Below are positions 4,207-57,113 of a stretch of DNA of 64,000 bases, one piece after another (the first letter of the stretch is position 1; every line of letters begins with the position of its first letter). The position numbers and the translations under genes were made by a program. Location: NCBI GenBank assembly GCA_000806115.1, contig JWKQ01000001.1, positions 25,784 to 89,783 on the forward strand, read 5' to 3'. The notes under the pieces were generated by a model. The model saw nothing but the letters and a program-made list of their open reading frames with translations. It made no database searches and had not been told where the DNA came from. The stretch is from an archaeon GW2011_AR5 (GTDB lineage Archaea > Aenigmatarchaeota > Aenigmatarchaeia > GW2011-AR5).

Positions 4207-4380
4207 ATCCATGACTTCTTCGACTTTCGTCTGGACGTCCGCAAGCCCGCCCGTCGGCTGCGCCAGAACGGATTCACAAACGAGGCACTTAACCACCGTG
4301 GCTGCCTTGCTGAACACTATCTGCTCGTTGCGGCATTTCTTGCACTTGACTTTCAAAAATCTGCTTTTTGGAGATTCCAT
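4204..4380 (-). CDS. rps27e: 30S ribosomal protein S27e (eS27)
   Basis: MESPKSRFLKVKCKKCRNEQIVFSKAATVVKCLVCESVLAQPTGG, a C4 zinc-ribbon typical of eS27. Confidence 0.9.
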   Translation of the reverse strand: MESPKSRFLKVKCKKCRNEQIVFSKAATVVKCLVCESVLAQPTGGLADVQTKVEEVMD

Positions 4381-5603: not shown

Positions 5604-5677
5604 TGAGACCTTTCTTTTAGAAAAAGAAAGTCCTCAAGCCTAAAGAAAAATATTAATGGTGACTCTCTGGCATTCGC
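5604..5677 (+). repeat. stop-codon-type element, copy C (degenerate)
   Basis: TGAGACCTTTCTTTTAGAAAAAGAAAGTCCTCAAGCCTAAAGAAAAATATTAATGGTGACTCTCTGGCATTCGC. Same architecture as copies G and H, but the core is diverged. Confidence 0.6.
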
Positions 5678-5726: not shown

Positions 5727-7682
5727 TTATTTCGGGCCGAAGATAAACGGCTGCGGCTTCTCTTTTTCCTTCCTGATTTTCTTCGGATTTTCCGGTTTAA
5801 TCCCTCTCGGCTTTTTTCTCAGAACCTTAATCGCAACGCCGGCTGCCACTAAGACCGCCCCCAATATCGCAATTATGACAGGATTTGACGCGATTATATC
5901 CGACGCGCTTCCCCCGCCCGAGCCGAAAATATCGAATACAGAATTCCCGTTACCGCCGCCATTTCCGGGAATATCTTCGTCTCTGCATGTGCCGCAGTCC
6001 GCCGCACAGTTTGAACACGTTTCACTCAGGCTGCAAACATTATTGCCGCAGTCAGCCGGAGTGAAGTTTCCGGAACTGCCCGAGCCGTTCGCGCTTCCAT
6101 TTCTGCCATCGTTTTCCGAGTACCATAATCCCGGAGCATTTGAATTTCCGCTGCTGCTTCCACTATCTGAATTTACGGAGCCGCTTTTGCTCACTGTTAT
6201 TGTTTTTGAGGCTGAGCCCGAATTGCCTGCTGCATCGGTGGCTGTGACGCTAAGGCTGTACTCCCCGTTGCTAAGCCCCGAAGGATCATAATTCGCCTCG
6301 CACAGGATGCTGTTGCTGCTTGCGACTACGCACGACATTGTTGTGCCGCTTCCTGAAACCGTGTAACTGACACGCGTCCTGTCGTAGTTTGTGTCGTTCA
6401 CCGTGGCGCTGATTGTGAACGTGCTGCTTACAGCGGAATTAGGCCCTGTTATTGCCACTACCGGATCCGTGTTGTCTGCCGTGACGGCGACTGTGTCGGT
6501 GGCGGGCTGGTCCAGTATATTGCTTGCGTTCGCCGTGAGCGTGTAAGCCCCGTCACCTGCCGTTACAGTGTTGAACGAGTAGCTGCAGCTTGTAAACTGC
6601 GAGTTGCAGCTCATTGTTACGTTATTGCCGTATCCCGACCTCTCTATCCTGAGGTGCACGCCATTGATTATGCTGCCGGGGTTGGAGAGCGACGCGCTTA
6701 TGCTCGCAGTGCCCGTCACGTAACCTTCCGGGCTGAGCGTCACAGACGGCATGTTGTTGTTTATCGTAAGCGAGAAATTTGTCGAGTTCACGTTTCCTGC
6801 CGTATCATTAACGCTGAATGTGACGTTGTAAGCGTTGTCCGGAAAAAGAGCCGTGTTGACAGTGACGTTGCATGTTGCGTTTCTCGTGCCGGTGCAGGTC
6901 ATCGTACTTTCCGACCCTGATATGCTTAGCTTCCCCCTGTCGGCGCCAGAGAACGAGTCGAGCGCGTTAATAACAAATGAAACTGTGCCTCTCACAGTGG
7001 CGCCCGCCGAGTGGGAAGTTACGGAAATTCTCGGCTTTTCGTTGTCCACAGTTGCGTTGATGGCTGACGTGCCGGTGTTGTTGAGGATATCGGACGCACG
7101 AACATATATAGTTAGCGTCTGGTTGTTTGAATATGCAGACGAGTTGAAATATCCGGTGCCGGAAGGCATGCTGCTCCATGTTGAATTGTCAAGGGAGAGC
7201 CTGTACGCGTCGGCGTTTACCCCCGAGACTGCGTCTGTCGAACTTGCCCGCACAGTGACGTTGCCGGAAACGTACGAGCCGTTCAACGGAGCAAGGAATG
7301 TTATCACTGGTGGACTCCTGTCCAGTCTGAACTGGAAGAATCCCGGATTGCCCAGCCTGTTTACGCCTGAACTGTCGTTAGCCTCGAAATAGAAGAATTC
7401 AATGGTGTCCGCGCCTGCTATAGCAAAGGATACTGTTTTGGTGCAGTTGTAAGGATTTCCTGAACATTGCATTGTATATGTGTCCCAGGGTTCGCCGTTG
7501 ATGTATGCGTCTTCGGAGATGAGATAAAGCCTGGCATAATCAAGCGACGACGAGGTTACATTGACGTAGAAACTGACGTTGCCGCGGCCGAAATAACTGT
7601 TGTTCGCAGGGAGATAATTTGAGAGGGAAGCGGCCTGAACGCCCGGCAAAAGCATCAACACGACAAGAAGAAGCCATCGCAT
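5727..7682 (-). CDS. large secreted, membrane-anchored surface protein (probable glycoprotein)
   Basis: 651 aa. Signal peptide MRWLLLVVLMLLPGVQAAS, dozens of N-x-S/T sequons, a repetitive beta-rich body, the Cys-rich motif CGNNVCSLSETCSNCAADCGTC, a Gly/Asn/Ser linker, one C-terminal TM and a Lys/Arg tail. Confidence 0.75.
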   Translation of the reverse strand: MRWLLLVVLMLLPGVQAASLSNYLPANNSYFGRGNVSFYVNVTSSSLDYARLYLISEDAYINGEPWDTYTMQCSGNPYNCTKTVSFAIAGADTIEFFYFEANDSSGVNRLGNPGFFQFRLDRSPPVITFLAPLNGSYVSGNVTVRASSTDAVSGVNADAYRLSLDNSTWSSMPSGTGYFNSSAYSNNQTLTIYVRASDILNNTGTSAINATVDNEKPRISVTSHSAGATVRGTVSFVINALDSFSGADRGKLSISGSESTMTCTGTRNATCNVTVNTALFPDNAYNVTFSVNDTAGNVNSTNFSLTINNNMPSVTLSPEGYVTGTASISASLSNPGSIINGVHLRIERSGYGNNVTMSCNSQFTSCSYSFNTVTAGDGAYTLTANASNILDQPATDTVAVTADNTDPVVAITGPNSAVSSTFTISATVNDTNYDRTRVSYTVSGSGTTMSCVVASSNSILCEANYDPSGLSNGEYSLSVTATDAAGNSGSASKTITVSKSGSVNSDSGSSSGNSNAPGLWYSENDGRNGSANGSGSSGNFTPADCGNNVCSLSETCSNCAADCGTCRDEDIPGNGGGNGNSVFDIFGSGGGSASDIIASNPVIIAILGAVLVAAGVAIKVLRKKPRGIKPENPKKIRKEKEKPQPFIFGPK

Positions 7683-8190: not shown

Positions 8191-8346
8191 GTTCTCCAAG
8201 GAAATAAGCAATATATAATTACTTCCTTGGGAACTACAAGGTGAAGCAAAGCTTCACCTGTACAGGAGAATCAAAGATTCTCCTTGTATCTGTGAACCCA
8301 GAATTCATGTCCTGTTTCTTTTCCGGGTTCACTATAAGATATAAAA
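8191..8346 (+). repeat. four-hairpin module 1 ending in a strong TATA-like box
   Basis: Stems at 8191-8203/8223-8234, 8239-8247/8251-8259, 8262-8272/8276-8287 and 8292-8299/8325-8332, followed by TATAAGATATAAAAG. Confidence 0.7.
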
Positions 8347-28658: not shown

Positions 28659-29066
28659 ATGGCTGACAGAGAAAGGCGAGAGGAGATAAAAAGTCAGATC
28701 AGCTACATTCTTAAGAAGCGACGGAAGTATCTAGAAGAGCTTGGAATAAATAGACAGGAGATCTCCGAAGCTTTCGCGAGGGCAATTAATACAACACATA
28801 ATTATGCGTCTTCAATAATAACGAAATACGAGCATGGACTCGTGCCTTATCCAACAACAGCCGGATACATTACTAACGCAAGCAAAAATAGAAGACGCCC
28901 TGTAAAGGAACATTACCGCCTCAAATATCTGCACGATATCGGAATTTACCTAAGAATTCTGGGAATCAAGCCGCCGGAGCTGGTATCCATCGCGGAAATG
29001 TTGCAGGAGCTTGACAGCAATTTTCATCTGCCGGAAGGCACAGAATCTATCGACCAGCCCGTATAG
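28659..29066 (+). CDS. hypothetical protein, possible XRE-like HTH
   Basis: 135 aa. LGINRQEISEAF...SSIITKYEHGLVPYP loosely resembles an XRE HTH. AT-rich. The 3' end overlaps a convergent gene. Confidence 0.4.
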   Translation: MADRERREEIKSQISYILKKRRKYLEELGINRQEISEAFARAINTTHNYASSIITKYEHGLVPYPTTAGYITNASKNRRRPVKEHYRLKYLHDIGIYLRILGIKPPELVSIAEMLQELDSNFHLPEGTESIDQPV

Positions 29067-30761: not shown

Positions 30762-31133
30762 CTAGTATCTCCGCCCCATGGAGCGTTCCATGTTCTTCAG
30801 CCGTTCGTTGATGGTTTCTGTCTGGCTGCGTATGGCTGACAGCTGGCTTTCTATGAGACTGAGCCGGTCCATTATGTCATAATCGCGCGAACCGCGTTCG
30901 CTTTGCATTTGCGCAGGCTGCCTCATGTCTATACTGCCAAAGCCTGCCGGGTTGTCGAACTGCTGCGGAGATGTCGGGTCGTCCCATGCCGGCACCTCAA
31001 CCTTCCTGTTGGGGCGCGGGAAATCCGGCTCGGGTTCCTGCGGCATCCGGAAATCGCCGAGCACGCTGGAGCGTATATCCTCAGCGTCGTCGTAGTCTTT
31101 CCTGTGAAGCCTGTTCTTTAGCCTGTCAAACAT
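30762..31133 (-). CDS. hypothetical protein, Pro-rich with C-terminal coiled coil
   Basis: 123 aa. C-terminal heptads MDRLSLIESQLSAIRSQTETINERLKNMERSM. Confidence 0.5.
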   Translation of the reverse strand: MFDRLKNRLHRKDYDDAEDIRSSVLGDFRMPQEPEPDFPRPNRKVEVPAWDDPTSPQQFDNPAGFGSIDMRQPAQMQSERGSRDYDIMDRLSLIESQLSAIRSQTETINERLKNMERSMGRRY

Positions 31134-31239
31134 ATTGATCTCTGGTATAGATTCGTTCTTCTTAGTATTTATTTGTGTTTTCCAGTTAATTTGCGGTTTG
31201 TGCGTATTGAAATAAAATCATGGGAAATGCCTAAGCATC

Positions 31240-31378
31240 GCGAACGCCAGTGAGCCAGAATAACTAATAAGTTTCTTTGGGGTAAGACCTAGACCTTTCT
31301 CGTAAGAAACCAAAGGTTTCTGGCGACTCAGGAAAGCTCCGCTTTCCTCGAGTTTCCGAAAGAAAGGGATTGGTATTA
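31240..31378 (-). repeat. composite repeat copy F (stop-type core plus leader-type body with internal insertion)
   Basis: Exact core at 31240-31256 (reverse complement). The body matches copy A almost base for base (GGGTAAGACCTAGACCTTTC ... AAAGAAAGGGATTGGTAT). There is an extra ~55 nt with two hairpins at 31306-31320 and 31331-31347. Confidence 0.8.
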
Positions 31379-31858
31379 GTCTTCTTCGTGACCTATCTTG
31401 AACTTTTCCTGAACAAATTCCTTCATGTCCATGATGTCGTCCTTGCCGTTCTCGAGATAGCCGCGCCGCTGCTTGTAATAGAACCCATGGTTGTAGAACC
31501 ACCAGAAGCTGCGCTGTATGAAATTAGCAAACGTGTAGCCGGTCTCCAGCGTGCCCTTTATCTCTATTGAGAAGTTGCCGGTCCCGTCCTTGTTCTGGAC
31601 TCCCTGCACGATCACTCGGATGAGCGTTCTTGACCACTGGTCCTCTGTGCGCTTCCCCATCCAGACGCCGTAAAAGCCTCCGTCAGTGATGTCCCACCGG
31701 ATGTCCGTTTCGAGCAGGTCTTTCCCGGGAATCTTCATGATGGTCTTTATCATGTCCGGCACCATTCCCATGATGGCGGCAGGATTCGAGCCCCTGTAAA
31801 CCACCTTCAGCCTGTCAGACGGAGCCATCAGGTCGTCTATAATCTTGAGGTCGCCCAT
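31376..31858 (-). CDS. hypothetical protein, paralog 1
   Basis: 160 aa. The C-terminal aromatic helix FIQRSFWWFYNHGFYYKQRRGYLENGKD aligns with MFRRFWHNMFYQQQRMQYLNLGKE of the ORF at 32508..33026. Confidence 0.6.
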   Translation of the reverse strand: MGDLKIIDDLMAPSDRLKVVYRGSNPAAIMGMVPDMIKTIMKIPGKDLLETDIRWDITDGGFYGVWMGKRTEDQWSRTLIRVIVQGVQNKDGTGNFSIEIKGTLETGYTFANFIQRSFWWFYNHGFYYKQRRGYLENGKDDIMDMKEFVQEKFKIGHEED

Positions 31859-31913
31859 ATAACATTATTCTGTTTCCTGCCTATTTATAAAATTCGTGGT
31901 AATCAGGAAAAAT

Positions 31914-32513
31914 ATGATAATAGACCTGACGATGGAAATCGACGAACGCACGCCTGTTTTTCCTGGCGACCCGAAGCCCGATATAAGACAGGCTGCAACC
32001 ATTGAAGAGAACGGCTGGAACGAGAAGCGGCTCACATTCAACAGCCACTTCGGCACGCACATCGACGCGCCGTTCCACATGCTCCCCGACGGGAAGAAGC
32101 TGACTGATTTCCCTCCGGAGAGATTCATCGGAGAAGCTGTTGTTATTGACGCGCGCGGACAGGACGAAATCGACAGCAATCTGGAAGCTGTGAAGGAAGG
32201 CGACATTGTGTTCTTCTTTACGGGCTATTCTGACAACGTCTCCGGCGACTACTTTGAGGGCGGTCCCGTAATCACCTCCGCCACCGCCGGGAAACTGGTT
32301 GAGAAGAAGGCAAAAATCGTGGGTTTGGATTCGTGGACGCCGGACAAGGCTCCTTACGACGTGCACAAAATGCTTTTCAGAAATGACATACTGATCGTCG
32401 AGAATCTTGTAAATCTGGGGCGGCTAATTGGAAGGCGTTTCGAGTGCTTTGTTCTGCCGCTAAAGATAAGGGATGCAGACGGCGCGCCCTGTCGCGTGAT
32501 TGCGCGATTATGA
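31914..32513 (+). CDS. cyclase-family hydrolase (kynurenine formamidase-like)
   Basis: TPVFPGDP, HFGTHIDAPFH and GLDSWTPD match the putative cyclase family. The ATG at 31914 is ~27 nt downstream of TATTTATAAAA. Confidence 0.8.
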   Translation: MIIDLTMEIDERTPVFPGDPKPDIRQAATIEENGWNEKRLTFNSHFGTHIDAPFHMLPDGKKLTDFPPERFIGEAVVIDARGQDEIDSNLEAVKEGDIVFFFTGYSDNVSGDYFEGGPVITSATAGKLVEKKAKIVGLDSWTPDKAPYDVHKMLFRNDILIVENLVNLGRLIGRRFECFVLPLKIRDADGAPCRVIARL

Positions 32514-33026
32514 TGCGCCGCCGTTTCTAAGGGTTTCGCCGAAGTGCTTGACGCTGGACTCCATGGATGTCAGCAGCTCCTTGCCGAGATTCAGATATTG
32601 CATTCTCTGCTGCTGGTAGAACATGTTGTGCCAGAAGCGGCGGAACATCTCATACATTATGTTCTGCTGCCAGATGGTGTCCTGGGGGTATTCCGTTATC
32701 AGGCGCGGCTTGAGGCGTATGACAGCTTTTCCTTCTCCGCCGGCGCTGAAACCCTTCAATGAGATTTCGCAGACTATGTAAGAATAAGTGTCCAGCACCT
32801 TGTTGACTTCCCAGTCAATCTCGAACTTTTCCCCGTCTTTTGTCTTCTCCCAGAGGTAGTTTTTCTCCTGGACGTACGCGTCGGGAACGTTGAACACGGT
32901 GCGCATGAGCTCGTTGAGCTTCTTGTAGAACTGCTCCGGCTTCGGGCCTATGTAGGAAATCCTCAGGTCCTTGATAGGTTCGAATATGTAATCCCATATC
33001 AGGAGCTTTGTTCTTGCCCATACCAT
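32508..33026 (-). CDS. hypothetical protein, paralog 2
   Basis: 172 aa. Same architecture as the ORF at 31376..31858: a beta-rich core followed by an aromatic/Gln-rich helix. Confidence 0.6.
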   Translation of the reverse strand: MVWARTKLLIWDYIFEPIKDLRISYIGPKPEQFYKKLNELMRTVFNVPDAYVQEKNYLWEKTKDGEKFEIDWEVNKVLDTYSYIVCEISLKGFSAGGEGKAVIRLKPRLITEYPQDTIWQQNIMYEMFRRFWHNMFYQQQRMQYLNLGKELLTSMESSVKHFGETLRNGGAS

Positions 33027-33180
33027 CTTCTACACCTTCTAAGATATACTTGCAGCTATGCTATATATTGGTTTTGCAAGGGAGGATGACGAACGTTCTT
33101 TTTTACATGCGCTGAAACAGGGGAACTTCGGGACTATTATTTACCTAAACAATAAATAGCGGATAAAGGCAATAATTATC

Positions 33181-33528
33181 ATGGTACTTGAGATAATACT
33201 AGCGGCGGTGCTGATAGCTTTCGGAATCATTGCTATACTGTTCTCCATCAACGAGGATGTCAACGACAAGCAGCTGATTGTCGTGCTGCTGGTAGGGGTG
33301 GCTGCCATAATCGGCGGCGGCTGGATAATATTGACGCACGTCACGCTCTGGATACTGCTGGCGAAGCTCGCCGGGCTCATACTGGCGGGCATAGGGCTCT
33401 TCCTCATAATCGGGTTCCCGGACGTCGAGCCCGACTACCAGCTCCGCGGGATGTCAAACGCCGGGGTTTTCATAGGCATCGTGCTCCTGATAATCGGGGC
33501 TTACCTCCTGCTCTTCTACCCCGCTTGA
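33181..33528 (+). CDS. small polytopic membrane protein (4 TM)
   Basis: 115 aa made almost entirely of four hydrophobic helices. Its stop codon is the first 3 nt of repeat copy G. Confidence 0.6.
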   Translation: MVLEIILAAVLIAFGIIAILFSINEDVNDKQLIVVLLVGVAAIIGGGWIILTHVTLWILLAKLAGLILAGIGLFLIIGFPDVEPDYQLRGMSNAGVFIGIVLLIIGAYLLLFYPA

Positions 33529-33616
33529 GCCTTTCTTTCTTCAGAAGAAAGAAACCCTTAACGGAAAGAAAGAACTTATTATTAATTCTGGCTCACTGGC
33601 GTTCGCGAAAGCGAAC
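33526..33616 (+). repeat. stop-codon-type element, copy G
   Basis: TGAGCC-TTTCTTTCTTCAGAAGAAAGAAA-CCCTTAACGGAAAGAAAGAACTTATTATTAATTCT-GGCTCACTGGCGTTCGC, followed by the hairpin GTTCGC-GAAA-GCGAAC. Confidence 0.85.
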
Positions 33617-33689
33617 CACCTTATAATATTTTCTTTTTGATTGAGATTTTTCTTTACAAAGAAAAAGCTCAGCCGAGAAAACTTTATTT

Positions 33690-35468
33690 ATGGGGAGCGG
33701 GGATATAGTTCTACAGGAACAGGGCAAAAAATTAGATGTCAGAACCGATGGCGATATTATGGCTTTCAAAGACATGTTCAAACCGGTGAAAAAGAAAAAG
33801 GAGAAAAAAGAGAAGGGAAGCTGGATACTCGACGACATATCCAGGCACCCGCTAAAAGGCGACATACTCAACAAGGATCTGGGCAAGATGTGCGGGCCGA
33901 AGGGAAAGTGGCTGGGACATGTGATAGCCGCGGGACCTTTCGAGGCGCACCAGCAGCTTGACTTCACCGGGCCTCCGGGCTCGGTTTCCGGAATGTATTA
34001 CAGCCTTGTTTTCCAGCTCAGAAAATGGGAATATCAGGTGCAGAAGAGGGACGAATGGGTGGAGGTTTCTCCCGTCCATGCCCAGTACTACCAGCTGACC
34101 CAGAAGCAAAAAGAGGACCTCGAGGGGAGAATAAAGCAGGGGCTTGTTTCCGTCTCGCAATCCGTGGCAGACATGGAACTCCTTATGCACGACAGGCGCA
34201 GGTACCACGAGTTCCTCCATTACCTCGGCTACAGGACCCCGAAAGAACTTATCAAGGACAAGAAGCTTGAGGACAGGGAGAGGAAGGAACATTCCCATGT
34301 TGACGAGGAAATGGACGAGATATGCCTCAATGAGGATAATGACGACGACGAAAGAAAAGAAAGGGAAAAGCGGACGGACAACCATTCACTGAAGGCTGTT
34401 TTCATAGACCAGGTGGACATGCACACCGGCGAAGGGATTTCCATGAGGAGCATAGTGAGCCGCTGGCCCACGCTCATCACCGACTTCATGAGGATGGACG
34501 ACGGCGACATGGACCCGGACAAGGTGAAAAACAAGCTGGACATCTCCCGCGCAGAAGCAGTGGTTCTGATAACGAAGAACAAGCTCTACCAGGAATGGAA
34601 GAACATGTTCGGCCCCGAGATAAAGAACAGGTACGTCACCATCAATGACCTCACCCACGCAAGGAAGAAGTCCGTTGAGGAGTACAAGGAGTGGCTGAAG
34701 CCGTTCATAGCGCGCCACAGGCTGCTCAAGGAGGGGCTGGCGCAGGAAGGCATGCGCAAGGGAGGCGTGACATCGTTCGTCACCACAGCCGGCACGGCGA
34801 CATCATCGTCGAAAATCGTGCTTTACGTCTGGAAGGATTTCCTCGTGCCGGAACTCTACAAGGGCGGCTCGGAGGAGACTGCAAAGCTCAGGGAATTCAA
34901 GAAATTGAAACCAAATGACGACTGGACAATGAAGCACCTAATATTCAACGAGAGATACGGACTGATAAACAAATACGACTGGATCACGGAAGACTGGGTA
35001 AACGAACATGCGGAAAAAATGAAAAACGACGGATGGTTCACCCACCAGAAGCCCTATTACTCGTTCTTCCAGATAACGCTTGACAAGACGAACATAAGGA
35101 TGCCCACAGGCGACGAGCTCGAGGACGGCGTGTTTGACATAAACATGTTCTGCATGAGCGAGAACGCGCTTTTTGCAAAACTGCTCGAGCTGAAGGCGGA
35201 GCAGGAGCTGATGGAGCAGCACGTCAATAAACTGCTCGGGATGCACAAGCCCGTAAGGGGCAAGATTCCGAAATACGCGTTCAAGGAGGGCGCTTTTGAC
35301 AAGTTCCTCGACAGATTCAAAATGCCGTTCATTTTTGCCAAGAACCACGGGCCCTACGAACGCGACTTCGCAGACAGGCTCACGAAGATATACTTCGCGC
35401 GCATAGCAGGCGAGCGCTACGCACCGATAGTCAACTTCATCAAGGGCAAGATGGGGATGAAAGGTTGA
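33690..35468 (+). CDS. large uncharacterized protein
   Basis: 592-aa uninterrupted ORF with a Lys-rich N-terminus and an acidic insert (DEEMDEICLNEDNDDDERKEREKR). I recognised no catalytic or nucleotide-binding motif. Confidence 0.7.
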   Translation: MGSGDIVLQEQGKKLDVRTDGDIMAFKDMFKPVKKKKEKKEKGSWILDDISRHPLKGDILNKDLGKMCGPKGKWLGHVIAAGPFEAHQQLDFTGPPGSVSGMYYSLVFQLRKWEYQVQKRDEWVEVSPVHAQYYQLTQKQKEDLEGRIKQGLVSVSQSVADMELLMHDRRRYHEFLHYLGYRTPKELIKDKKLEDRERKEHSHVDEEMDEICLNEDNDDDERKEREKRTDNHSLKAVFIDQVDMHTGEGISMRSIVSRWPTLITDFMRMDDGDMDPDKVKNKLDISRAEAVVLITKNKLYQEWKNMFGPEIKNRYVTINDLTHARKKSVEEYKEWLKPFIARHRLLKEGLAQEGMRKGGVTSFVTTAGTATSSSKIVLYVWKDFLVPELYKGGSEETAKLREFKKLKPNDDWTMKHLIFNERYGLINKYDWITEDWVNEHAEKMKNDGWFTHQKPYYSFFQITLDKTNIRMPTGDELEDGVFDINMFCMSENALFAKLLELKAEQELMEQHVNKLLGMHKPVRGKIPKYAFKEGAFDKFLDRFKMPFIFAKNHGPYERDFADRLTKIYFARIAGERYAPIVNFIKGKMGMKG

Positions 35469-35539
35469 GCCTTTTTCTTTGAGGAAAGAAAAAGCCTCAA
35501 CGGAAAAAGAAAATATTACTAAGGCTCACTGGCGTTCGC
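35466..35539 (+). repeat. stop-codon-type element, copy H
   Basis: TGAGCC-TTTTTCTTTGAGGAAAGAAAAAG-CCTCAACGGAAAAAGAAAATATTACTAA-GGCTCACTGGCGTTCGC. Confidence 0.85.
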
Positions 35540-35571
35540 TGAAAAATAATATTTGAAGATAAAGTTTACAA

Positions 35572-35626
35572 GATCACCAGTTCTTTTGGTGAGACGTAGA
35601 CTTTTCTTACCAAGAAAAGGATCCGT
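35572..35626 (+). repeat. leader-type two-hairpin element, copy J
   Basis: GATCACCAGTTCTTTTGGTGAGACGTAGACTTTTCTTACCAAGAAAAGGATCCGT-ATG. Confidence 0.8.
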
Positions 35627-37333
35627 ATGTCAGAAGAACAAAAAAAACCGCTGTACACCGTGGGCATATCGACAGGATTTTGGAGAATCGGCAAGGACCC
35701 CAATCTGCTCGGCCTGGCGCAGAAAATCGGCGGGCTGGGCGCCACGGGCGGAATCCGGTTCGTCCAGATAGACCTAGAGACGATAGCGGAGTTCGCCGAG
35801 CCTGACGTAAGAAATCAAATAAGGCGCATCCAGAGCAAGCTTGGCATCGGCGAAGTCGGACTTCACGGGGAGATAGGCGAGCTGATGGCGCTGGACTCGG
35901 CGGAGAAGCGCATATGGGATCAGACGCACCGAAGGCTCTGCCAGACGGTGAAATTCGCCGCTGAGGTGGGATTTCTTTATGTAAATGTCCACTTCTCAAA
36001 CAAGCAGTTCATTTCTTTTACCGAGGCGCAGCACCGGACGCAGGGTTACTTCTATCCTGTCGTGGGCTATGACGGAAGAGGGTTGCAGAACGTAGTGAAG
36101 GACCATCCTGCAATCTGGGACGAGGTAAAGAAGCGCATGCCACGGACGCTTTCGCAGAGTGGCACATTCCAGGAAAAATACAGAGCGTTGCGAGAATCCA
36201 AGATCGCCCAAGCGCCGGTGCTCATCGAGCAGGCAGTGAGAAGGGACATGGAAATGATTCCAGAAGGGCAACGGACACCGGAGGAGAGAAAAAGACGTGA
36301 AGAGTACCACAAAAATCAGATAGTGCCCAGCCTTCTGCAGCAGGCAAGGGAAGAGGCTCAGTCACCAGAGTTCGAATTCGATGCATGGCTGAACTTGAGA
36401 GATGACGAGTCAGAGAAGTACCAGCTGGACGACGGGGAATGGGGCGCATACCATGTGATTGCTCACTGCATGAAGGCTGCGCATGACACGTTCTGGTCGA
36501 ACATAGCCGGGAACAAAGATCCAGAATCGCTTTACTTCAAGGACGAACAGGCCTTCTGCGCGGCTGTGTCGTCAAAATACATAGAAGGACACCTGACGCT
36601 CAAGGATAATGATGCCAACAGAAAACATCTGGATGGAATGAGCGTCAAGGAATGGTGCGAGAAGCACAAGCTCATGCTTCTGCTTGAAAACCCGGAGTCC
36701 GGAGAAGGCGCCGAGGGGCTATACAGGCTGTTCGACCCGCAGCAGTTCTATTTTACGATAAAGAAAATAGGCTCGCCTTACGTGCGCGTGACGATAGACT
36801 TCGAGCACATGGTGTCGCAGGGCATAGACCCTGATGACATGCTTCCCAAGCTTCCTGGCGATTTCGGAAAAATGATATTCTTATTTCACCTGGGGCAGGC
36901 TGTGCCTTACGGCGGAACAGCCCACATACCCATAGCCAGAGGCAGCATCGCGCAGGAGCAGATATACAGGTGGCTTTTCTGGATGCGCAAAAAGGGATGG
37001 ACGCGCGGCTACATGATGTTCGAGCGCGGCGGCGGGCGCACCGGACAGGGGAGGCTGCCGAACGAGGTGTTCGAGGACAGCGTGCAGGCGCTGCGTCAGA
37101 TTGCCACATACCTGGAGAAAGACGCCAAGCCCGAGGCGCTCCCGCCGGAATTCTACGGGGTATCGGTGCGGAACGAGCCCGTATGGGCGCGGCAGATGGT
37201 GGCCATACGCGAGCATGCATGGGACCCGCTCGAGGGGCTGCTGAGCGTGTCCGAGGAGAAGCACACGTTCCTCAGCAAGGCAGCTGTCGAAAAGAACAAG
37301 GCGCAGGAATGGGAGAAGCGGAAGTTCAGGTAA
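35627..37333 (+). CDS. xylose-isomerase-like TIM-barrel protein with a large charged insertion (tentative)
   Basis: 568 aa. Strand-end motifs VGLHGE, LYVNVH, LLLENPE, TIDFEH, LFHLGQ and MFERGG resemble the sugar-phosphate isomerase/endonuclease IV TIM-barrel superfamily. A ~200-aa insert rich in Glu/Arg/Gln separates the halves. Confidence 0.55.
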   Translation: MSEEQKKPLYTVGISTGFWRIGKDPNLLGLAQKIGGLGATGGIRFVQIDLETIAEFAEPDVRNQIRRIQSKLGIGEVGLHGEIGELMALDSAEKRIWDQTHRRLCQTVKFAAEVGFLYVNVHFSNKQFISFTEAQHRTQGYFYPVVGYDGRGLQNVVKDHPAIWDEVKKRMPRTLSQSGTFQEKYRALRESKIAQAPVLIEQAVRRDMEMIPEGQRTPEERKRREEYHKNQIVPSLLQQAREEAQSPEFEFDAWLNLRDDESEKYQLDDGEWGAYHVIAHCMKAAHDTFWSNIAGNKDPESLYFKDEQAFCAAVSSKYIEGHLTLKDNDANRKHLDGMSVKEWCEKHKLMLLLENPESGEGAEGLYRLFDPQQFYFTIKKIGSPYVRVTIDFEHMVSQGIDPDDMLPKLPGDFGKMIFLFHLGQAVPYGGTAHIPIARGSIAQEQIYRWLFWMRKKGWTRGYMMFERGGGRTGQGRLPNEVFEDSVQALRQIATYLEKDAKPEALPPEFYGVSVRNEPVWARQMVAIREHAWDPLEGLLSVSEEKHTFLSKAAVEKNKAQEWEKRKFR

Positions 37334-37490: not shown

Positions 37491-38693
37491 TTGATGGCAA
37501 AACAAAAACCGGCAAAACCCCAGGCAAAACAGCAGCCAGGCGCGCCCGTTGACAAGAAGCTGCAGGCAAAGCAGGAAGCGTTCCGCAAAAAGCAGCTTGC
37601 CCTCGCCAATAAGTTCAAGGAAGAAGTTCTGAAGAAGTACAAGGACATCGTCAAGGCTATAGTTATTTTTGGCTCTTTCACAAGGCAGGATTTCCATGAA
37701 AAATCCGACATAGACATGCTTGTCGTGATAGACGACGTAACCGCGCGGTTCACGCCTGAAATGAAGGACGAGTTTGACGACAGGCTCTACGACATCGCAA
37801 AGCGGATTTCAGAGAACATGACTGTGCAGCCCGCATGGATGCTCTCGGAGTTCTGGGACATGGCGAGGATAGGACACCCTTTGCTTTTCACGATAGTCCG
37901 CGACGGCTGGGCTCTCTACGACACCGGCTTCTTCATACCCGTGCGCAAGCTGCTCGAGCTCGGGAAAATACCGACCACGCTTGAAGCTGTGGAAAAATTC
38001 ATGGAAACCGCGCCGCAGAAAATCAACCGCGTGGAGACGGCAAAGCTCTACATGGTTGCAGAGGACTTATACTATTCAATGCTCAACAGCTCGCAGGCGG
38101 TGCTCATGTACATGGGACTCAACCCGCCGTCGCCAAAACATACGCCGCTGGACGTCAAGGAGCACCTCGTCGACGCGAACCTGCTCGAAGCCAATTACCA
38201 CCAGGATCTTGAGGCAGTCATACAGTTCAGGAAGCAGGTGGAGCACAAGGAGACCAAAGACATTTCAGGACAGCAGCTGGACGAGTTCATACAAAAAGCG
38301 AAGCAGTACGTCTCGAGGATGGAACAGCTTCTGCTGCAGCTGCAGAAGAAGAAAAAAGAGACGATAGTCCACAAGAACTATGAAGTGATGATAAAAGCGG
38401 CAGTCGCGGCGCTGAAGAAGATAGACAAGCTCCCGCCAGACCCGAAAGATTTGCCGGGGGCAATCAAGGAGCAGCTGATAGACACGAAGCGCGTGGACCC
38501 CTACTTCAATGACGTGTTCAAGCGCGTAATAACCATGAGAAAGATGCTGGACGAGGACAAAATAAACGAGATACCTCAACGTGATATAGAGATGACGCGG
38601 GAATACGTCCGCCGTTTTGTGCAGGACTTGCGCCCGATGATTGAGCCGTCGCCGAAAAAGGCAAAATCGCCTGCATCCAGGAAGAAGAAATAG
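37491..38693 (+). CDS. nucleotidyltransferase (MNT-like) fused to a HEPN-like helical domain and a C-terminal extension
   Basis: IVIFGSFTRQDFHEKSDIDMLVVID is the GS..DxD minimal NTase motif. A downstream helical region is HEPN-like. Both termini are basic. Confidence 0.65.
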   Translation: MMAKQKPAKPQAKQQPGAPVDKKLQAKQEAFRKKQLALANKFKEEVLKKYKDIVKAIVIFGSFTRQDFHEKSDIDMLVVIDDVTARFTPEMKDEFDDRLYDIAKRISENMTVQPAWMLSEFWDMARIGHPLLFTIVRDGWALYDTGFFIPVRKLLELGKIPTTLEAVEKFMETAPQKINRVETAKLYMVAEDLYYSMLNSSQAVLMYMGLNPPSPKHTPLDVKEHLVDANLLEANYHQDLEAVIQFRKQVEHKETKDISGQQLDEFIQKAKQYVSRMEQLLLQLQKKKKETIVHKNYEVMIKAAVAALKKIDKLPPDPKDLPGAIKEQLIDTKRVDPYFNDVFKRVITMRKMLDEDKINEIPQRDIEMTREYVRRFVQDLRPMIEPSPKKAKSPASRKKK

Positions 38694-38968: not shown

Positions 38969-39325
38969 ATGCACTATAGAAAATTGATAATTGCAGCGTC
39001 GTTTGCGGCTGCCGCTTGCATATCGGTCCCGGAAGGGCATATAACAAGGCGCACAGGAACGACCTCTGCCATTGAAGGCGGGAATAAGTATGTGGAGTTC
39101 ATCGACAGGCGACCTGCCAAAGAAAGGCCTGCAAGATATGAAGGCGACATTATTTTTGTTGATATGAAAGCAGACGGAAGCATAGACGGTTATTTGATAC
39201 CTTTAATTCAAAAGCCTATGCCGCTTGAAGATATTTCAAGGGCGCCGGAAACTGTTAAAACAATTGCAGGATCCATAGTCACGGATTATTTTGGCCAAGA
39301 ACCGAAAGGAAAATGGTGGAGATAA
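38969..39325 (+). CDS. putative lipoprotein (lipobox-like signal)
   Basis: MHYRKLIIAASFAAAAC: positive N-region, hydrophobic core and AAAC lipobox-like cysteine. Confidence 0.5.
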   Translation: MHYRKLIIAASFAAAACISVPEGHITRRTGTTSAIEGGNKYVEFIDRRPAKERPARYEGDIIFVDMKADGSIDGYLIPLIQKPMPLEDISRAPETVKTIAGSIVTDYFGQEPKGKWWR

Positions 39326-39537: not shown

Positions 39538-40023
39538 ATGAGATATCTAAGGATGCTTGCAACGGCATCCGCGCTTTTTGCCGCCGGATGTTATTCTAGC
39601 TCACAATTCAGCGGAAAATTGATTGAGCATAACAGGATGGAGATAAAGAACATTTCCCCCGATTTTCTGGAGTCTTTTGGACTAGACTCGTCCAACGAAT
39701 GCATTGTGGAATCATATGTTGTTCACGGAACCGGGCGAAACGAAGACGCATCTTATTTTGATGTCGGCTGCGACGGACACGTAGATGGATTCATAAGATT
39801 GGGGAGAACACCGGCAGGAAGGATACCATTAAGGTCGGTGTACGTAAGATACCCCGGCGGACGCGATTATAGGAAATTTATCGACGCGGTAGTTTTAGGC
39901 ATGTCAGGCCGCGGCTTCCCTGACGAAGAAGCCGACACGAATTCGGAGACTGGGAACAGACTCCAGAAAGAATTTGACGCTGTTGCCTCTGAAAGCAGAC
40001 GGAGGCCGAACGGCAGAAACTGA
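39538..40023 (+). CDS. putative lipoprotein (lipobox-like signal)
   Basis: MRYLRMLATASALFAAGC. It shares a DGxxDG(F/Y) segment with the ORF at 38969..39325. Confidence 0.5.
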   Translation: MRYLRMLATASALFAAGCYSSSQFSGKLIEHNRMEIKNISPDFLESFGLDSSNECIVESYVVHGTGRNEDASYFDVGCDGHVDGFIRLGRTPAGRIPLRSVYVRYPGGRDYRKFIDAVVLGMSGRGFPDEEADTNSETGNRLQKEFDAVASESRRRPNGRN

Positions 40024-41481: not shown

Positions 41482-41518
41482 ATTCCCACTATAAAATCAA
41501 ATCTTAAATACGGCTTAT

Positions 41519-41596
41519 ACAGGAGAATTTTCGATTCTCCTTGTATATGTGAACCCACTTGCGCGAAAATCTTTTGTGGGTTCACTATAAAAATAT
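41519..41596 (+). promoter_or_regulatory. two-hairpin module plus TATA box of the leaderless DNA ligase gene
   Basis: Stems at 41519-41528/41533-41544 and GTGAACCC 41549-41556/GGGTTCAC 41578-41585, then TATAAAAATAT at 41586-41596, centred ~25 nt before the ATG at 41615. Confidence 0.6.
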
Positions 41597-55712: not shown

Positions 55713-57113
55713 TTGTCACTTGAAAAAAGGCTCAGCGACGTTGAACAGTCGATAAAAGTAATCGCGCAGTACGTACGCGAGCAGAGTGAAAAGCTGGAGT
55801 CGGAGGTAAGCTCGCTCAAGGGAACAGAAAGCCTTTACGACGCCAAGCCTGAGATAGAACAGATAAAGACTAATGTTGAATCGCTTCGTTCTTCCATGCA
55901 AGTTGCCACGCCTCTGGACGAGGACAGGGTAAGGAAGTCCATACAAATTCTTCGCAATGAGTTTGACAATTTCAGGAACGAGGCTTCTCCAAAACTTCAA
56001 TACCTCGACAAGAAGACCGACAAGCTCAAGGAAACTGTTGAAACTGTGAGCCTTGCCGACATGGGCGAACTGAAAAAGTACGTCGAAAGGATGGACAAGA
56101 AGATACACGAGATGCTTGCGCTGAAGGAAGAGCTTGACGACGTCGAGGAAACTCTCACCAAAATGAAGGTGATTGCCAACAGGCTGAAGGACTTCGACGT
56201 GGCTTCCTACAGGGAGGAGTTCGACAGGCACATGAACGACATGTTCGGCAAGTTCGAAGCAAGCGACATGAAGAGGATTGGCGAAATTGCCGAGCAGCTG
56301 AAGGACACGGATATTCATGATTTCAAGAACATGTCATCGAAAATGAAGCATCTCGAGAAGCTGGAGACGGACGAGGCCAAGAAACTTGTGGAGATGATGA
56401 ACCAGCTGAAGGACATCGAGATGCATGACATCAGGAACCTTGTCAAGCAGATGAAGGAATCAAAGGAAGCGCTGGAAGAAGAGGCGGTAAGCAGACTTTC
56501 CACCGAGAAACGGCTCGCGGATATCGAGTCGAAGCTCGCGCAGGTGAAGAATCTTGAGACGAAAGACATAGGACAGCTTAACACTGCACTGGAACACCTG
56601 CAGGGCATCGAAATGGAAGAGCTCAAAGGGATAGCAACCACTATAAAGGAGGCGAAGGAAGCGCTCGAGGATGAGTCGATAAACAGGATGTCGACTGAGA
56701 AACGCTTCGCAGAATTCGAGAGGACGCTCAAGGAGCGTCAGTCAGCTTTGGAGGCAAAAGTGAACAGGGCGAGCGAGATTGCAAGTCATATTGAAAACGT
56801 TGATGGTCTGGACATACAGAAGCTGGGCAGCAGAATCAACGACATGGAGAGCAACATGAAGCTCAATACGGTGAAATTGCTGACGCAGCAGCTCAACGAG
56901 TTCGCGAAATCAGTCGACAGGCGAATTCCAAACGTGGTGAGCCGCGAGGAATATATGAGGCAGGTGGCTGACTTGAACCAGAGAATGCGCACCGTCGAGG
57001 CGCCCGATCTGTCGCCGCTGGGAGCGCGCGTTGAGCGGCTGGAAAAGAAACTTGACGAGATAGCAGGCATGATGCGCCAGATGTACGACCGCGTGCCTAT
57101 TGTCGTTGAATAG
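55713..57113 (+). CDS. long coiled-coil protein with internal duplication
   Basis: 466 aa, TTG start 3 nt after the upstream stop. Duplicated block LKDIEMHDIRNLVKQMKESKEALEEEAVSRLSTEKRLADIESKL / LQGIEMEELKGIATTIKEAKEALEDESINRMSTEKRFAEFERTL. Confidence 0.6.
   Translation: MSLEKRLSDVEQSIKVIAQYVREQSEKLESEVSSLKGTESLYDAKPEIEQIKTNVESLRSSMQVATPLDEDRVRKSIQILRNEFDNFRNEASPKLQYLDKKTDKLKETVETVSLADMGELKKYVERMDKKIHEMLALKEELDDVEETLTKMKVIANRLKDFDVASYREEFDRHMNDMFGKFEASDMKRIGEIAEQLKDTDIHDFKNMSSKMKHLEKLETDEAKKLVEMMNQLKDIEMHDIRNLVKQMKESKEALEEEAVSRLSTEKRLADIESKLAQVKNLETKDIGQLNTALEHLQGIEMEELKGIATTIKEAKEALEDESINRMSTEKRFAEFERTLKERQSALEAKVNRASEIASHIENVDGLDIQKLGSRINDMESNMKLNTVKLLTQQLNEFAKSVDRRIPNVVSREEYMRQVADLNQRMRTVEAPDLSPLGARVERLEKKLDEIAGMMRQMYDRVPIVVE

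What the first reader, a model, noticed from the sequence alone, without database searches (positions are those of the whole stretch)
30762..37333. Candidate undescribed gene block: seven mostly unassignable genes separated by copies of the repeat element
This 6.6-kb block interrupts a run of recognisable housekeeping genes. It encodes:
- a Pro-rich coiled-coil protein (30762..31133, -)
- paralog 1 (31376..31858, -)
- a cyclase-family metal hydrolase (31914..32513, +)
- paralog 2 (32508..33026, -)
- a 4-TM protein (33181..33528, +)
- a 592-aa protein without any motif I can name (33690..35468, +)
- a 568-aa interrupted TIM-barrel protein (35627..37333, +)

Four of the ten repeat copies in the window lie inside this block (31240-31378, 33526-33616, 35466-35539, 35572-35626). 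The last gene carries the same leader element as rps3ae, eif2b, DUF424 and PAC2.

The block combines a membrane component, two small paralogs, two large soluble proteins (one probably enzymatic) and a hydrolase. That combination could be a dedicated structural or metabolic module. Nothing in the sequences matches a known defence, secretion or cytoskeletal system by eye.
Basis: inference. Interest (0 to 1): 0.7.

Follow-up and report, generated by a model that had tools for sequence, protein, structure and literature searches.

The report
Conserved unknown-function gene module in Aenigmarchaeota
This block is a real gene module of unknown function, kept in the same order across the whole uncultivated archaeal phylum Aenigmarchaeota; it pairs a distant endonuclease-IV-like metal enzyme with proteins that resemble nothing described, so it is a good target for experiments.

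Summary

The window comes from an Aenigmarchaeota (DPANN) archaeon. In 80 loci from species-level genomes the same architecture recurs, even where the 592-aa family is only about 30% identical:
- one operon on the minus strand: paralog 2, paralog 1, small coiled-coil protein;
- one divergent operon on the plus strand: [small TM protein], 592-aa protein, 568-aa TIM-barrel protein, nucleotidyltransferase.

Gene spacing indicates translational coupling.
- The cyclase gene occurs in no other locus, so it is a local insertion.
- The adjacent nucleotidyltransferase (37491-38693) belongs to the module.

What the proteins look like:
- 592-aa protein: no sequence or structural relative.
- Paralogs: modelled as helix-grip-like.
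- TIM barrel: keeps an endonuclease-IV-like set of metal ligands around a roughly 230-aa insertion.

The repeats are specific to this genome and have loosened formerly compact operons. Function is unknown. My best guess (about 0.3) is a membrane-tethered phosphoesterase complex acting on a lipid-like substrate; nucleic-acid processing is nearly as likely.

The parts
30762..31133 (-). Small tether-like protein (123 aa): short amphipathic/basic N-terminus (MFDRLKNRLHRK), Pro/Glu-rich variable linker, conserved C-terminal coiled-coil helix ending in RRY. Last gene of the minus-strand operon.
   Evidence: ORF. Detected by BLAST in 23 of 57 loci. The distant clade has an ORF of 81-121 aa with the same architecture at the same position. 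It lies within 50 nt of paralog 1 in 27 of 47 loci.
31134..31375 (-). Intergenic spacer holding a genome-specific repeat cassette: 17-mer at 31240-31256 and leader-core copy at 31281-31301.
   Evidence: The 17-mer is absent from related genomes.
31376..31858 (-). Paralog 1 (160 aa), helix-grip-like small subunit.
   Evidence: Paralogy to 32508-33026 with E = 8e-13. The family is in 54 of 65 loci, and 45 of those have two copies.
31896..32513 (+). Cyclase / arylformamidase-like metal hydrolase (PF04199). A passenger gene inserted between the paralogs, not part of the conserved module.
   Evidence: Pfam 91.6 bits. Below the TIGR03035 equivalog cut-off (94.5 against 223). Absent from all other fetched loci. 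It widens the paralog gap to 649 nt against a median of 1.5 nt.
32508..33026 (-). Paralog 2 (172 aa), helix-grip-like small subunit. First gene of the minus-strand operon and the better conserved of the two paralogs.
   Evidence: 191 homologs; the 120 listed are 59-94% identical. AlphaFold model pLDDT 81, pTM 0.71. Foldseek finds SRPBCC / Bet v 1 / CoxG / PYL proteins at E = 3e-4 to 5e-3 but with TM <= 0.36.
33027..33180 (.). Divergent control region between the two operons.
   Evidence: Divergent arrangement conserved; the gap between paralog 2 and the 592 family has a median of 430 nt, small TM gene included. Sequence.
33181..33528 (+). Small membrane protein with four TM segments (115 aa), weakly DUF308-like.
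   Evidence: Four TM-like windows. DUF308 scores 18 bits, below its cut-off of 25. Homologs found in 32 of 71 loci, 26 of 38 in the near clade.
33526..33616 (+). Repeat cassette that begins at the stop codon: T/C-rich hairpin, AACGGAAAGAAAGAA, then the 17-mer at 33590-33606, followed by a TATA-like stretch.
   Evidence: RNA fold z-score -3.8 for this copy, but no fold common to all copies.
33690..35468 (+). 592-aa protein: family without sequence or structural relatives, with very long helices plus beta hairpins. Inferred scaffold and obligate partner of the TIM-barrel enzyme. The true start may be Met24 (33759), because homologs are about 23 aa shorter.
   Evidence: 243 homologs, no Pfam domain. 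245 cluster representatives among 1.84 billion proteins. Model pLDDT 72.6. No Foldseek match at E < 0.001 in PDB or BFVD. Nothing in PDB by sequence. 94 species-level genomes encode it.
35466..35539 (+). Second copy of the stop-codon repeat cassette (17-mer at 35523-35539).
35572..35626 (+). Leader module with a hairpin that ends at the ATG of the 568-aa gene; shared with PAC2, DUF424 and rpS3Ae.
   Evidence: Fold z-score -3.5.
35627..37333 (+). 568-aa metal-dependent TIM-barrel enzyme (xylose isomerase-like / AP_endonuc_2 superfamily). It has a roughly 230-aa insertion between the VNxHxS and ENPE strands and invariant H80, H122, E354, D391, E393, H421, H433 and E466.
   Evidence: Pfam. Family alignment. 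The only hits among solved structures are endonuclease IV, at E = 0.027. The register matches E. coli Nfo motifs. Follows the 592 family in 60 of 67 loci, with a median gap of 19 nt and overlaps or zero gaps in 27 of 68.
37491..38693 (+). 400-aa KNTase-like nucleotidyltransferase with a helical (HEPN-like) C-terminal domain and basic tails.
   Evidence: PF01909 and PF18765. Kanamycin nucleotidyltransferase at E = 5e-6. G61, S62, D73 and D75 conserved; the His of the R-x4-H motif is not. Present in 42 of 54 loci and the best conserved gene of the block. Fits the DPANN family cls.004259 / NEQ050 described in PMC6393860.

Best explanation
SHOWN. The block is the local version of a vertically inherited module found throughout Aenigmarchaeota. 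It consists of two divergent operons:
- minus strand: paralog 2, paralog 1, small coiled-coil protein;
- plus strand: [small TM protein], 592-aa protein, 568-aa TIM-barrel enzyme, nucleotidyltransferase.

In this genome the ancestral compact operons were loosened by genome-specific repeat cassettes and by an unrelated cyclase gene inserted between the paralogs.

INFERRED. The products form one multi-subunit complex:
- The 568-aa protein is the catalytic subunit, a TIM barrel whose invariant His/Glu/Asp set mirrors the multinuclear metal site of endonuclease IV. That points to phosphoester chemistry.
- The 592-aa protein, translationally coupled to it in many genomes, is its obligate scaffold or partner.
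- The two helix-grip-like paralogs, probably a heterodimer, bind or deliver a small hydrophobic ligand.
- The small protein with an amphipathic N-terminus, the 4-TM protein and, in some lineages, an N-terminal TM anchor on the 592-aa protein hold the assembly at the cytoplasmic face of the membrane.
- The nucleotidyltransferase modifies the substrate or a subunit.

MOST LIKELY ROLE (speculative, about 0.3). The complex processes a phosphoester-linked lipid or isoprenoid at the membrane, for example remodelling lipids taken from a host. This lineage is inferred to have lost lipid biosynthesis.

I rate the module itself as real and functionally linked at about 0.9. The confidence given for this entry refers to the mechanism.
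For: Synteny and inheritance
- The 592 family is encoded in 94 species-level genomes, nearly all labelled Aenigmatarchaeota.
- tblastn and unbiased ORF clustering both recover the same order and strands down to 29% identity.
- After correcting for truncated loci: 568 family in 60 of 67, paralogs in 54 of 65 (two copies in 45), NTase in 42 of 54.
- Even the ~400-aa distant relatives are followed directly by an AP_endonuc_2 gene.

Operon structure
- 592 to 568: median gap 19 nt, with -4/-1/0 overlaps in 27 of 68 loci.
- Paralog 2 to paralog 1: median gap 1.5 nt.

Catalytic subunit
- PF01261 above its cut-off.
- Invariant H80, H122, E354, D391, E393, H421, H433, E466.
- Endonuclease IV entries are the only hits among solved structures, and the register agrees with Nfo motifs.

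Partner and small subunits
- The 592-aa model has long helices and no relatives.
- The paralog model matches SRPBCC, CoxG, PYL and START proteins.

Membrane link
- A small multi-TM ORF, or a TM anchor on the 592 family, is present in 42 of 79 loci (TM N-termini are visible).
- The MGLFD..KKKK-type N-terminus of the small protein is conserved across the phylum.

Context
- Loss of lipid biosynthesis is inferred for the ancestor of DPANN cluster 2 (bioRxiv 10.1101/2025.11.11.687807).
Against: - No subunit interaction, metal content, ligand or activity has been shown.
- The similarity to endonuclease IV is not statistically significant (E = 0.027; hhalign probability below 3%). The core Glu-Asp-His-Glu set is, to my knowledge, common to the whole xylose isomerase-like superfamily (not tested here).
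- The helix-grip assignment rests on TM-scores of 0.36 or less, and no Pfam SRPBCC family matches.
- A membrane component is detectable in only 11 of 34 distant-clade loci.
- The genomic neighbourhood (KH protein, Obg-like GTPase, ArgRS, rpS3Ae, DNA ligase), the Pol-beta-type NTase with basic tails, and the enzyme's nearest relatives all fit a nucleic-acid substrate at least as well.
- I did not check whether this genome really lacks lipid biosynthesis genes.
Confidence: 0.3

Rival explanations
1. Nucleic-acid processing or repair complex. The endonuclease-IV-like TIM barrel cuts DNA or RNA phosphodiesters, the Pol-beta-type nucleotidyltransferase adds nucleotides to the ends produced, the 592-aa coiled-coil protein is a scaffold, and the paralogs form a TBP-like or helix-grip nucleic-acid-binding pair. 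The complex could serve repair, RNA maturation or scavenging of host nucleic acids.
For: - Endonuclease IV entries are the only solved structures found by the de-inserted profile, and the ligand register agrees with Nfo.
- The NTase has intact catalytic residues, basic N- and C-terminal tails and pI 9.3.
- The 592-aa protein has a polybasic N-terminus and pI 8.6.
- The conserved neighbours are information-processing genes: KH protein, Obg-like GTPase, ArgRS, deoxyhypusine synthase, rpS3Ae, DNA ligase.
- The leader element is shared with translation genes.
Against: - It does not explain the small TM protein inside the operon, the TM anchors on some 592-family members, or the amphipathic N-terminus of the small protein.
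- No recognisable nucleic-acid-binding domain is present in any subunit.
- The His of the HEPN-type motif is not conserved.
- The similarity to endonuclease IV is not significant.
Confidence: 0.27
2. Structural, cytoskeletal or membrane-remodelling apparatus, for example for cell division, cell shape or host contact. The long-helix 592-aa protein and the highly conserved small paralogs would polymerise, and the TIM barrel and NTase would be regulatory or have lost catalysis.
For: - Helices of 48 and 65 residues in the 592-aa model.
- Unusually high conservation of paralog 2, 59-94%.
- A tether-like small protein with an amphipathic N-terminus and a coiled coil.
- Membrane components in many loci.
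Against: - The invariant metal-ligand set in the TIM barrel and the intact NTase catalytic residues argue for active enzymes.
- No similarity to any cytoskeletal, ESCRT or dynamin fold.
- No nucleotide-binding motif was seen in the 592-aa protein or the paralogs.
Confidence: 0.1
3. There is no common function. The genes are unrelated lineage-specific genes that remain neighbours because these small genomes rearrange little.
For: Housekeeping genes flanking the block (Obg-like GTPase, deoxyhypusine synthase, rpS3Ae) also keep their positions in the near clade, so some synteny is simply inherited.
Against: - The flanking housekeeping genes lose their positions in the distant clade, while the module genes keep order, strand and tight spacing.
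- Overlapping start and stop codons indicate co-translation.
- The 592 / TIM-barrel pair persists even in the most divergent, shortened relatives.
Confidence: 0.05
4. Mobile element, provirus remnant or anti-virus defence island inserted among housekeeping genes.
For: - It interrupts a housekeeping run and is flanked by repeats.
- An MNT/HEPN-like protein sits next to it.
- There are weak PADLOC hits to candidate systems, for the NTase only.
Against: - It sits at the same chromosomal position across a whole phylum, with divergence that tracks the genome.
- No integrase or transposase, and no compositional anomaly.
- No PADLOC or PHROG family for the core proteins.
- No relatives of the 592 or paralog families in 2.9 million viral contigs.
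- The repeats are genome-specific and also occur next to translation genes.
Confidence: 0.03

Closest known systems
Endonuclease IV (Nfo; AP_endonuc_2 / xylose isomerase-like TIM barrels)
   Same: - The 568-aa protein matches PF01261 above its cut-off.
- Endonuclease IV entries are the only solved structures its de-inserted profile finds.
- Invariant residues line up with Nfo motifs: LHGEIG ~ PHDSY, VNIHxS ~ LNFHPGS, ENPE ~ ENTA, IDFEH ~ IDTCH, FHLG ~ MHLND, AHIP ~ RHHS.
- From my own knowledge, these Nfo motifs carry the ligands of its three-zinc site.
   Different: - Twice the size, with a roughly 230-aa partly conserved insertion and a conserved ~100-aa C-terminal extension.
- The similarity is not statistically significant.
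- One Asp ligand appears to be replaced (Thr/Ala before H433).
- It is always encoded next to a large partner protein.
- The substrate is unknown.
Multinuclear non-haem iron TIM-barrel enzymes with an obligate partner (DUF692 / MbnB-MbnC type); comparison from memory, not tested
   Same: A xylose isomerase-like TIM barrel with a His/Asp/Glu-rich multinuclear metal site, encoded directly next to a non-catalytic partner protein with which it forms a heterocomplex.
   Different: - No PF05114 match.
- The partner here is 400-590 aa and unrelated to any known family.
- No precursor-peptide gene or other peptide-natural-product genes are recognisable.
SRPBCC / Bet v 1-like helix-grip ligand-binding proteins (CoxG, PYR/PYL receptors, START domains)
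   Same: The paralog model has an antiparallel sheet plus a long C-terminal helix. Its best Foldseek hits are 3lyd, PYL10, the APE2225 CoxG-family protein, M. smegmatis CoxG, PR-10 proteins and a START domain.
   Different: - TM-scores are 0.36 or less.
- No sequence-family match.
- Two paralogs always sit in tandem, which suggests a heterodimer.
- There is an invariant ITEYPQDT loop with no counterpart that I know of.
DPANN 'dark matter' family cls.004259 / NEQ050: MNT fused to HEPN in a housekeeping context (Makarova et al. 2019, PMC6393860)
   Same: g7 is an MNT-type NTase fused to a helical HEPN-like domain. It is strongly conserved and always lies in a housekeeping, non-mobile context.
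   Different: Identity with NEQ050 could not be tested because no sequence was at hand. The paper does not describe linkage to the other five families.

Membership tests
Xylose isomerase-like TIM barrel (Pfam PF01261, AP_endonuc_2), for the 568-aa protein | Profile match above Pfam's gathering score | tested here: met
   36.1 bits against a cut-off of 31.1. All 8 de-inserted members match, best E = 2.3e-12. PF01261 is precomputed for most homologs.
Xylose isomerase-like TIM barrel (Pfam PF01261, AP_endonuc_2), for the 568-aa protein | A complete (beta/alpha)8 barrel | tested here: inconclusive
   Only profile positions 112-248 of 249 are matched. The N-terminal half aligns only weakly, to endonuclease IV.
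Xylose isomerase-like TIM barrel (Pfam PF01261, AP_endonuc_2), for the 568-aa protein | Conserved Glu-Asp-His-Glu metal ligands on the C-terminal strands | tested here: met
   E354, D391, H421 and E466 are invariant in 27 sequences. The first three align with the Nfo ENTA / IDTCH / MHLND motifs. The match of E466 to ILET is inferred by pattern only.
Endonuclease IV (Nfo) family | Significant sequence similarity to endonuclease IV | tested here: not met
   Best E = 0.027. hhalign probability 2.9% and 0.3%. No NCBIfam hit.
Endonuclease IV (Nfo) family | Full set of nine ligands for three metal ions (ligand list from my own knowledge) | tested here: inconclusive
   Counterparts exist for eight: H80, H122, E354, D391, H394, H421, H433, E466. 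H394 is Gln in some members, and the Asp before the last His is Thr/Ala.
Endonuclease IV (Nfo) family | Compact barrel of about 285 aa that acts alone on abasic-site DNA | tested here: not met
   568 aa, with a roughly 230-aa insertion and an obligate neighbouring partner gene. Activity cannot be tested with these tools.
SRPBCC / Bet v 1-like helix-grip superfamily, for the two paralogs | Helix-grip fold | tested here: inconclusive
   Model pLDDT 81. Foldseek E = 3e-4 to 5e-3 and probability up to 1.0 against 3lyd, PYL10, CoxG-family proteins and PR-10, but TM <= 0.36 and rmsd above 9 A.
SRPBCC / Bet v 1-like helix-grip superfamily, for the two paralogs | Match to a sequence family of the superfamily | tested here: not met
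   No Pfam family for the two window proteins or for any of the 28 aligned members.
SRPBCC / Bet v 1-like helix-grip superfamily, for the two paralogs | Hydrophobic ligand cavity | not tested
MNT-HEPN fusion, DPANN cls.004259 / NEQ050 (PMC6393860), for g7 | Minimal nucleotidyltransferase domain with the GS...DxD motif | tested here: met
   PF01909 at 41.3 bits and PF18765 at 37.2 bits. G61, S62, D73 and D75 are at least 95% conserved in 44 sequences.
MNT-HEPN fusion, DPANN cls.004259 / NEQ050 (PMC6393860), for g7 | HEPN domain with an R-x4-6-H motif | tested here: inconclusive
   HepT-like scores 20.7 bits, below its cut-off of 23.5. RKQVEH is present at residue 247; R247 is conserved but H252 is below 95%.
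MNT-HEPN fusion, DPANN cls.004259 / NEQ050 (PMC6393860), for g7 | Sequence identity with the published cluster | not testable with these tools
   No NEQ050 sequence was available. Only the description matches.
Putative cyclase / arylformamidase (PF04199), for 31896-32513 | Profile match; and membership of the conserved module | tested here: met
   The family match is met: 91.6 bits against 23.1, though below the arylformamidase equivalog cut-off (94.5 against 223). Membership of the module is NOT met: the gene is absent from all other fetched loci.
Known anti-phage defence systems (PADLOC) | Any core protein matching a defence-system model | tested here: not met
   Only chance-level hits (E >= 0.002) for the block proteins. 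Only the NTase matches candidate systems, through its generic MNT domain.
DUF308 (PF03729), for the 4-TM protein | Profile match above the cut-off | tested here: not met
   18 bits against a cut-off of 25. A faint hit is also recorded for the L003 homolog.

The most novel reading that the evidence does not exclude
The module encodes a previously unseen, phylum-specific membrane-tethered machine. A new-fold scaffold (592 aa) holds an endonuclease-IV-derived metalloenzyme and a heterodimer of helix-grip carriers, and Aenigmarchaeota use it to take up or remodel lipids (or nucleic acids) obtained from their hosts. That would make it a molecular basis of the DPANN dependent lifestyle.
Probability: 0.2. 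Interest if true: 0.8.

Novelty: categorically new. Interest (0 to 1): 0.58.

Why it matters
Aenigmarchaeota are uncultivated, genome-reduced archaea whose biology is known almost only from gene lists.

- A module of six or seven genes that is kept in order across the whole phylum, is translationally coupled and is absent elsewhere is very likely important for these cells. It is also one of the few handles on what is specific to them.
- It contains a protein family with no detectable sequence or structural relatives.
- It contains an unusual derivative of the endonuclease IV / xylose isomerase barrel, with a large insertion and an obligate partner.
- If the complex handles host-derived lipids or nucleic acids, it would bear on the open question of how DPANN archaea obtain building blocks they cannot make.

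The label 'categorically new' reflects the lack of any matching described system. It does not mean that new biology has been demonstrated.

Tried and rejected
Searches that found nothing
- Rfam on the whole window: no family, so the repeats are not a known RNA.
- Folding of six repeat copies: z-scores from -3.8 to -0.1 and no shared global structure. I rejected a structured non-coding RNA family in favour of terminator/leader cassettes.
- Search for the 17-mer in related loci: none. I rejected a conserved regulatory site.
- PDB sequence searches with the 592 and 568 profiles: nothing.
- Viral-contig scans for the 592 and paralog families: nothing.
- PHROGs and PADLOC: no meaningful hits.
- Literature: three full-text searches and three papers read, and no description of this cluster.

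Leads examined and dropped
- Foldseek of the 592-aa model. PDB: best E = 0.15. BFVD: best E = 0.015, with a list dominated by levivirus maturation proteins at TM <= 0.17. I judged these non-credible.
- Weak START/Ups1-like hits of the 592-aa model (E about 1). Not significant, so not used as evidence.
- hhalign of the 592 family against the paralog family: no relation.
- Pfam on every member of both alignments: no consistent weak family.
- The HEPN RNase idea for g7: weakened because the motif's His is not conserved.
- pI and composition: uninformative.

Full report
**Observation.** All seven ORFs are present at the stated coordinates.
- The two small proteins are real paralogs: 25% identity, E = 8e-13.
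- Among four profile libraries, only two proteins get a family. The cyclase matches PF04199 at 91.6 bits. The C-terminal half of the 568-aa protein matches PF01261 (xylose isomerase-like TIM barrel) at 36.1 bits, against a cut-off of 31.1. The coiled-coil protein, both paralogs, the 4-TM protein and the 592-aa protein match nothing.
- The repeats are real. The 17-mer GGCTCACTGGCGTTCGC occurs four times exactly, three of them in the block, against 0.22 expected. The leader core occurs four times against 0.01 expected. Pyrimidine-stem hairpins number 15, against 1-5 in shuffles.
- The leader before the 568-aa gene is shared with PAC2, DUF424 and rpS3Ae, and eIF2-beta has the hairpin directly upstream.

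**Origin and distribution.**
- The 592-aa protein has 243 homologs, 43-95% identical among those listed. They have no Pfam domain, are named 'hypothetical' at best, and the named ones are almost all from Candidatus Aenigmarchaeota.
- An exhaustive profile search of 1.84 billion cluster representatives finds only 245, so the family is confined to roughly this phylum.
- The 568-aa protein and paralog 2 have the same distribution, and many hits lie on the same contigs.
- A scan of one genome per species found 94 genomes encoding the 592 family. Eighty loci were kept, nearly all labelled Aenigmatarchaeota.

**Synteny.** Three individual neighbourhoods, tblastn of all window proteins against 83 loci and an unbiased clustering of 1079 ORFs from 81 loci give the same picture:
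- paralog 1 (-) lies about 1.4 kb upstream of the 592-family gene;
- paralog 2 (-) lies about 0.9 kb upstream;
- a small TM gene (+) lies directly upstream of the 592-family gene;
- the 568 family (+) starts about 1.65 kb downstream of the 592-family gene's start;
- a ~400-aa nucleotidyltransferase (+) starts about 3.3-3.8 kb downstream of it.

This holds even where the 592 family is only 29-36% identical. After correcting for truncated contigs:
- 568 family: 60 of 67 loci
- paralogs: 54 of 65 (two copies in 45)
- NTase: 42 of 54
- TM protein: 32 of 71
- coiled-coil protein: 23 of 57 by BLAST

The distant clade has, at the coiled-coil gene's position, an ORF of 81-121 aa with the same architecture: an MGLFD..KKKK-type N-terminus, a Pro/Glu-rich linker and a C-terminal coiled coil. 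Shortened ~400-aa relatives of the 592 family are still followed directly by an AP_endonuc_2 gene.

Spacing shows operons. The 592-to-568 gap has a median of 19 nt, with -4/-1/0 overlaps in 27 of 68 loci. The paralog 2-to-paralog 1 gap has a median of 1.5 nt.

**What is peculiar to this window.**
- The cyclase gene is found in none of the other loci. It creates a 649-nt gap between the paralogs. The closest relative (L004) has different ORFs at that spot, so this position is an insertion hotspot and the cyclase is a passenger.
- The 158-nt gap between the 592 and 568 genes is among the largest seen. It is filled by a repeat cassette plus the leader module.
- The 17-mer is absent from all 89 loci fetched by then, including L004. 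The copies share a hairpin but no common fold, and Rfam finds nothing.
- I read the repeats as genome-specific terminator/promoter-leader cassettes that also serve translation genes. They are not part of the module's function.

**The proteins.**
- *592-aa protein.* The AlphaFold model (pLDDT 72.6) has helices of 48 and 65 residues, beta hairpins and an acidic disordered loop. Foldseek finds nothing below E = 0.001 in PDB or in viral models. Many Trp, His, Asp, Glu and Arg positions are invariant, and some lineages carry an N-terminal TM anchor followed by basic residues.
- *Paralogs.* The model (pLDDT 81, pTM 0.71) is beta2-alpha-beta4 followed by a 45-residue helix. Its best matches are helix-grip ligand binders: 3lyd, PYL10, CoxG-family proteins, PR-10 proteins and a START domain. 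Cyt1Aa also appears. E-values are 3e-4 to 5e-3 but TM-scores are 0.36 or less, so the fold class is suggestive and not secure.
- *568-aa protein.* H80, E82, N120, H122, E354, D391, E393, H421, H433 and E466 are invariant. A roughly 230-aa insertion, partly conserved and partly a variable charged segment, separates VNxHxS from ENPE. With the insertion removed, the only solved structures found are endonuclease IV entries (E = 0.027), which align LHGEIG and VNIHxS with CHSGY and LNIHPGS. hhalign against E. coli Nfo has low probability but a consistent register for ENPE/ENTA, IDFEH/IDTCH, FHLG/MHLND and AHIP/RHHS. From my own knowledge, these are the ligand motifs of the three-zinc site of endonuclease IV. 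The resemblance is a lead, and membership of the Nfo family is not established.
- *NTase (g7).* It has intact GS...DxD residues and a helical domain whose R-x4-H histidine is not conserved. It resembles kanamycin nucleotidyltransferase. It fits the DPANN-wide family described as 'MNT fused to HEPN... typically in house-keeping context' (PMC6393860).

**Membrane link.** A small multi-TM ORF upstream, or a TM anchor on the 592 family, is present in 42 of 79 loci: 31 of 45 in the near clade and 11 of 34 in the distant clade. The small coiled-coil protein has an amphipathic, basic N-terminus throughout the phylum.

**Interpretation.** That this is a functional module is well supported; I put it at about 0.9.

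The mechanism is inferred. I propose a complex built on the translationally coupled pair of 592-aa scaffold and 568-aa metalloenzyme. The paralogs would act as a ligand-binding heterodimer, the small protein and the TM protein as membrane tethers, and the NTase as a modifier.

Two substrate classes remain open:
- A phosphoester-linked lipid or isoprenoid at the membrane. This is favoured by the helix-grip fold, the membrane components and the inferred loss of lipid biosynthesis in DPANN cluster 2.
- Nucleic acid. This is favoured by the endonuclease IV resemblance, the Pol-beta-type NTase, the basic tails and the information-processing neighbourhood.

I put the two at roughly 0.3 and 0.27. A purely structural role, chance synteny and a mobile or defence island are less likely. 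The last is contradicted by the fixed chromosomal position across the phylum, the absence of defence or phage family matches and the absence from viral contigs.

**Novelty.** Three full-text searches and three papers gave no description of this cluster. Only the NTase seems to have been noted before, as a DPANN-wide family of unknown role. The module matches no described system.

Noticed in passing
window 38969-39325 and 39538-40023 (+): Two small ORFs (118 and 161 aa) between the NTase and rpS3Ae start with a signal-like hydrophobic segment followed by Cys (…AAAACIS…, …LFAAGCYSS…), like lipoprotein signal peptides. Neither has a homolog in any of the other fetched loci, so they are insertions specific to this genome.
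   Followed up: partly
window 5727-7682 (-): A 651-aa protein with several bacterial Ig-like domains (Big_7, Big_13, Big_3_3), a likely surface or adhesion protein. A degenerate copy of the 17-mer cassette lies just beside it at 5661-5677.
   Followed up: no
window 8261-8300 and 41518-41557: A second, unrelated 40-nt repeat (88% identical) that contains its own inverted repeat, GGAGAATC…GATTCTCC. Possibly another intergenic hairpin element.
   Followed up: no
window 4125-4210 (-) and ORF 3860-4144 (+): The fourth exact copy of the 17-mer cassette lies outside the block. The stop codon of the 94-aa ORF 3860-4144 falls inside the reverse complement of the 17-mer (CGCCAGTGAGCC). The cassette also begins with TGAGCC and ends with GGCTCA, a terminal inverted pair of the kind seen in small mobile repeats.
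   Followed up: partly
L004 7017-8475 (closest relative, 83% identity): Between the two paralog genes, where the window has the cyclase, L004 has two other ORFs on the minus strand (161 and 368 aa). The paralog-paralog junction seems to be a recurrent insertion site.
   Followed up: partly
window 33690-33758: The first 23 codons of the 592-aa ORF have no counterpart in most homologs, which start near MAFKDMFKPVKKKK. The true start may therefore be Met24 at 33759.
   Followed up: partly
window 56295-56729: Internal direct repeats, 74-81% identical, of 36 nt (108 nt apart) and 87 nt (192 nt apart), inside what looks like a coding region for a repetitive, coiled-coil-type protein.
   Followed up: no
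window 28659-29066 (+): A 135-aa ORF between deoxyhypusine synthase and the Obg-like GTPase has no homolog in any related locus. It overlaps the 3' end of the GTPase gene by about 20 nt.
   Followed up: no
592-aa model against BFVD and PDB: The non-significant Foldseek lists are dominated by maturation proteins of ssRNA phages (PDB 8toc_a; about 40 of the top 50 BFVD hits), all at TM <= 0.17. This is probably an effect of database composition and a generic mix of long helices and beta sheets.
   Followed up: partly
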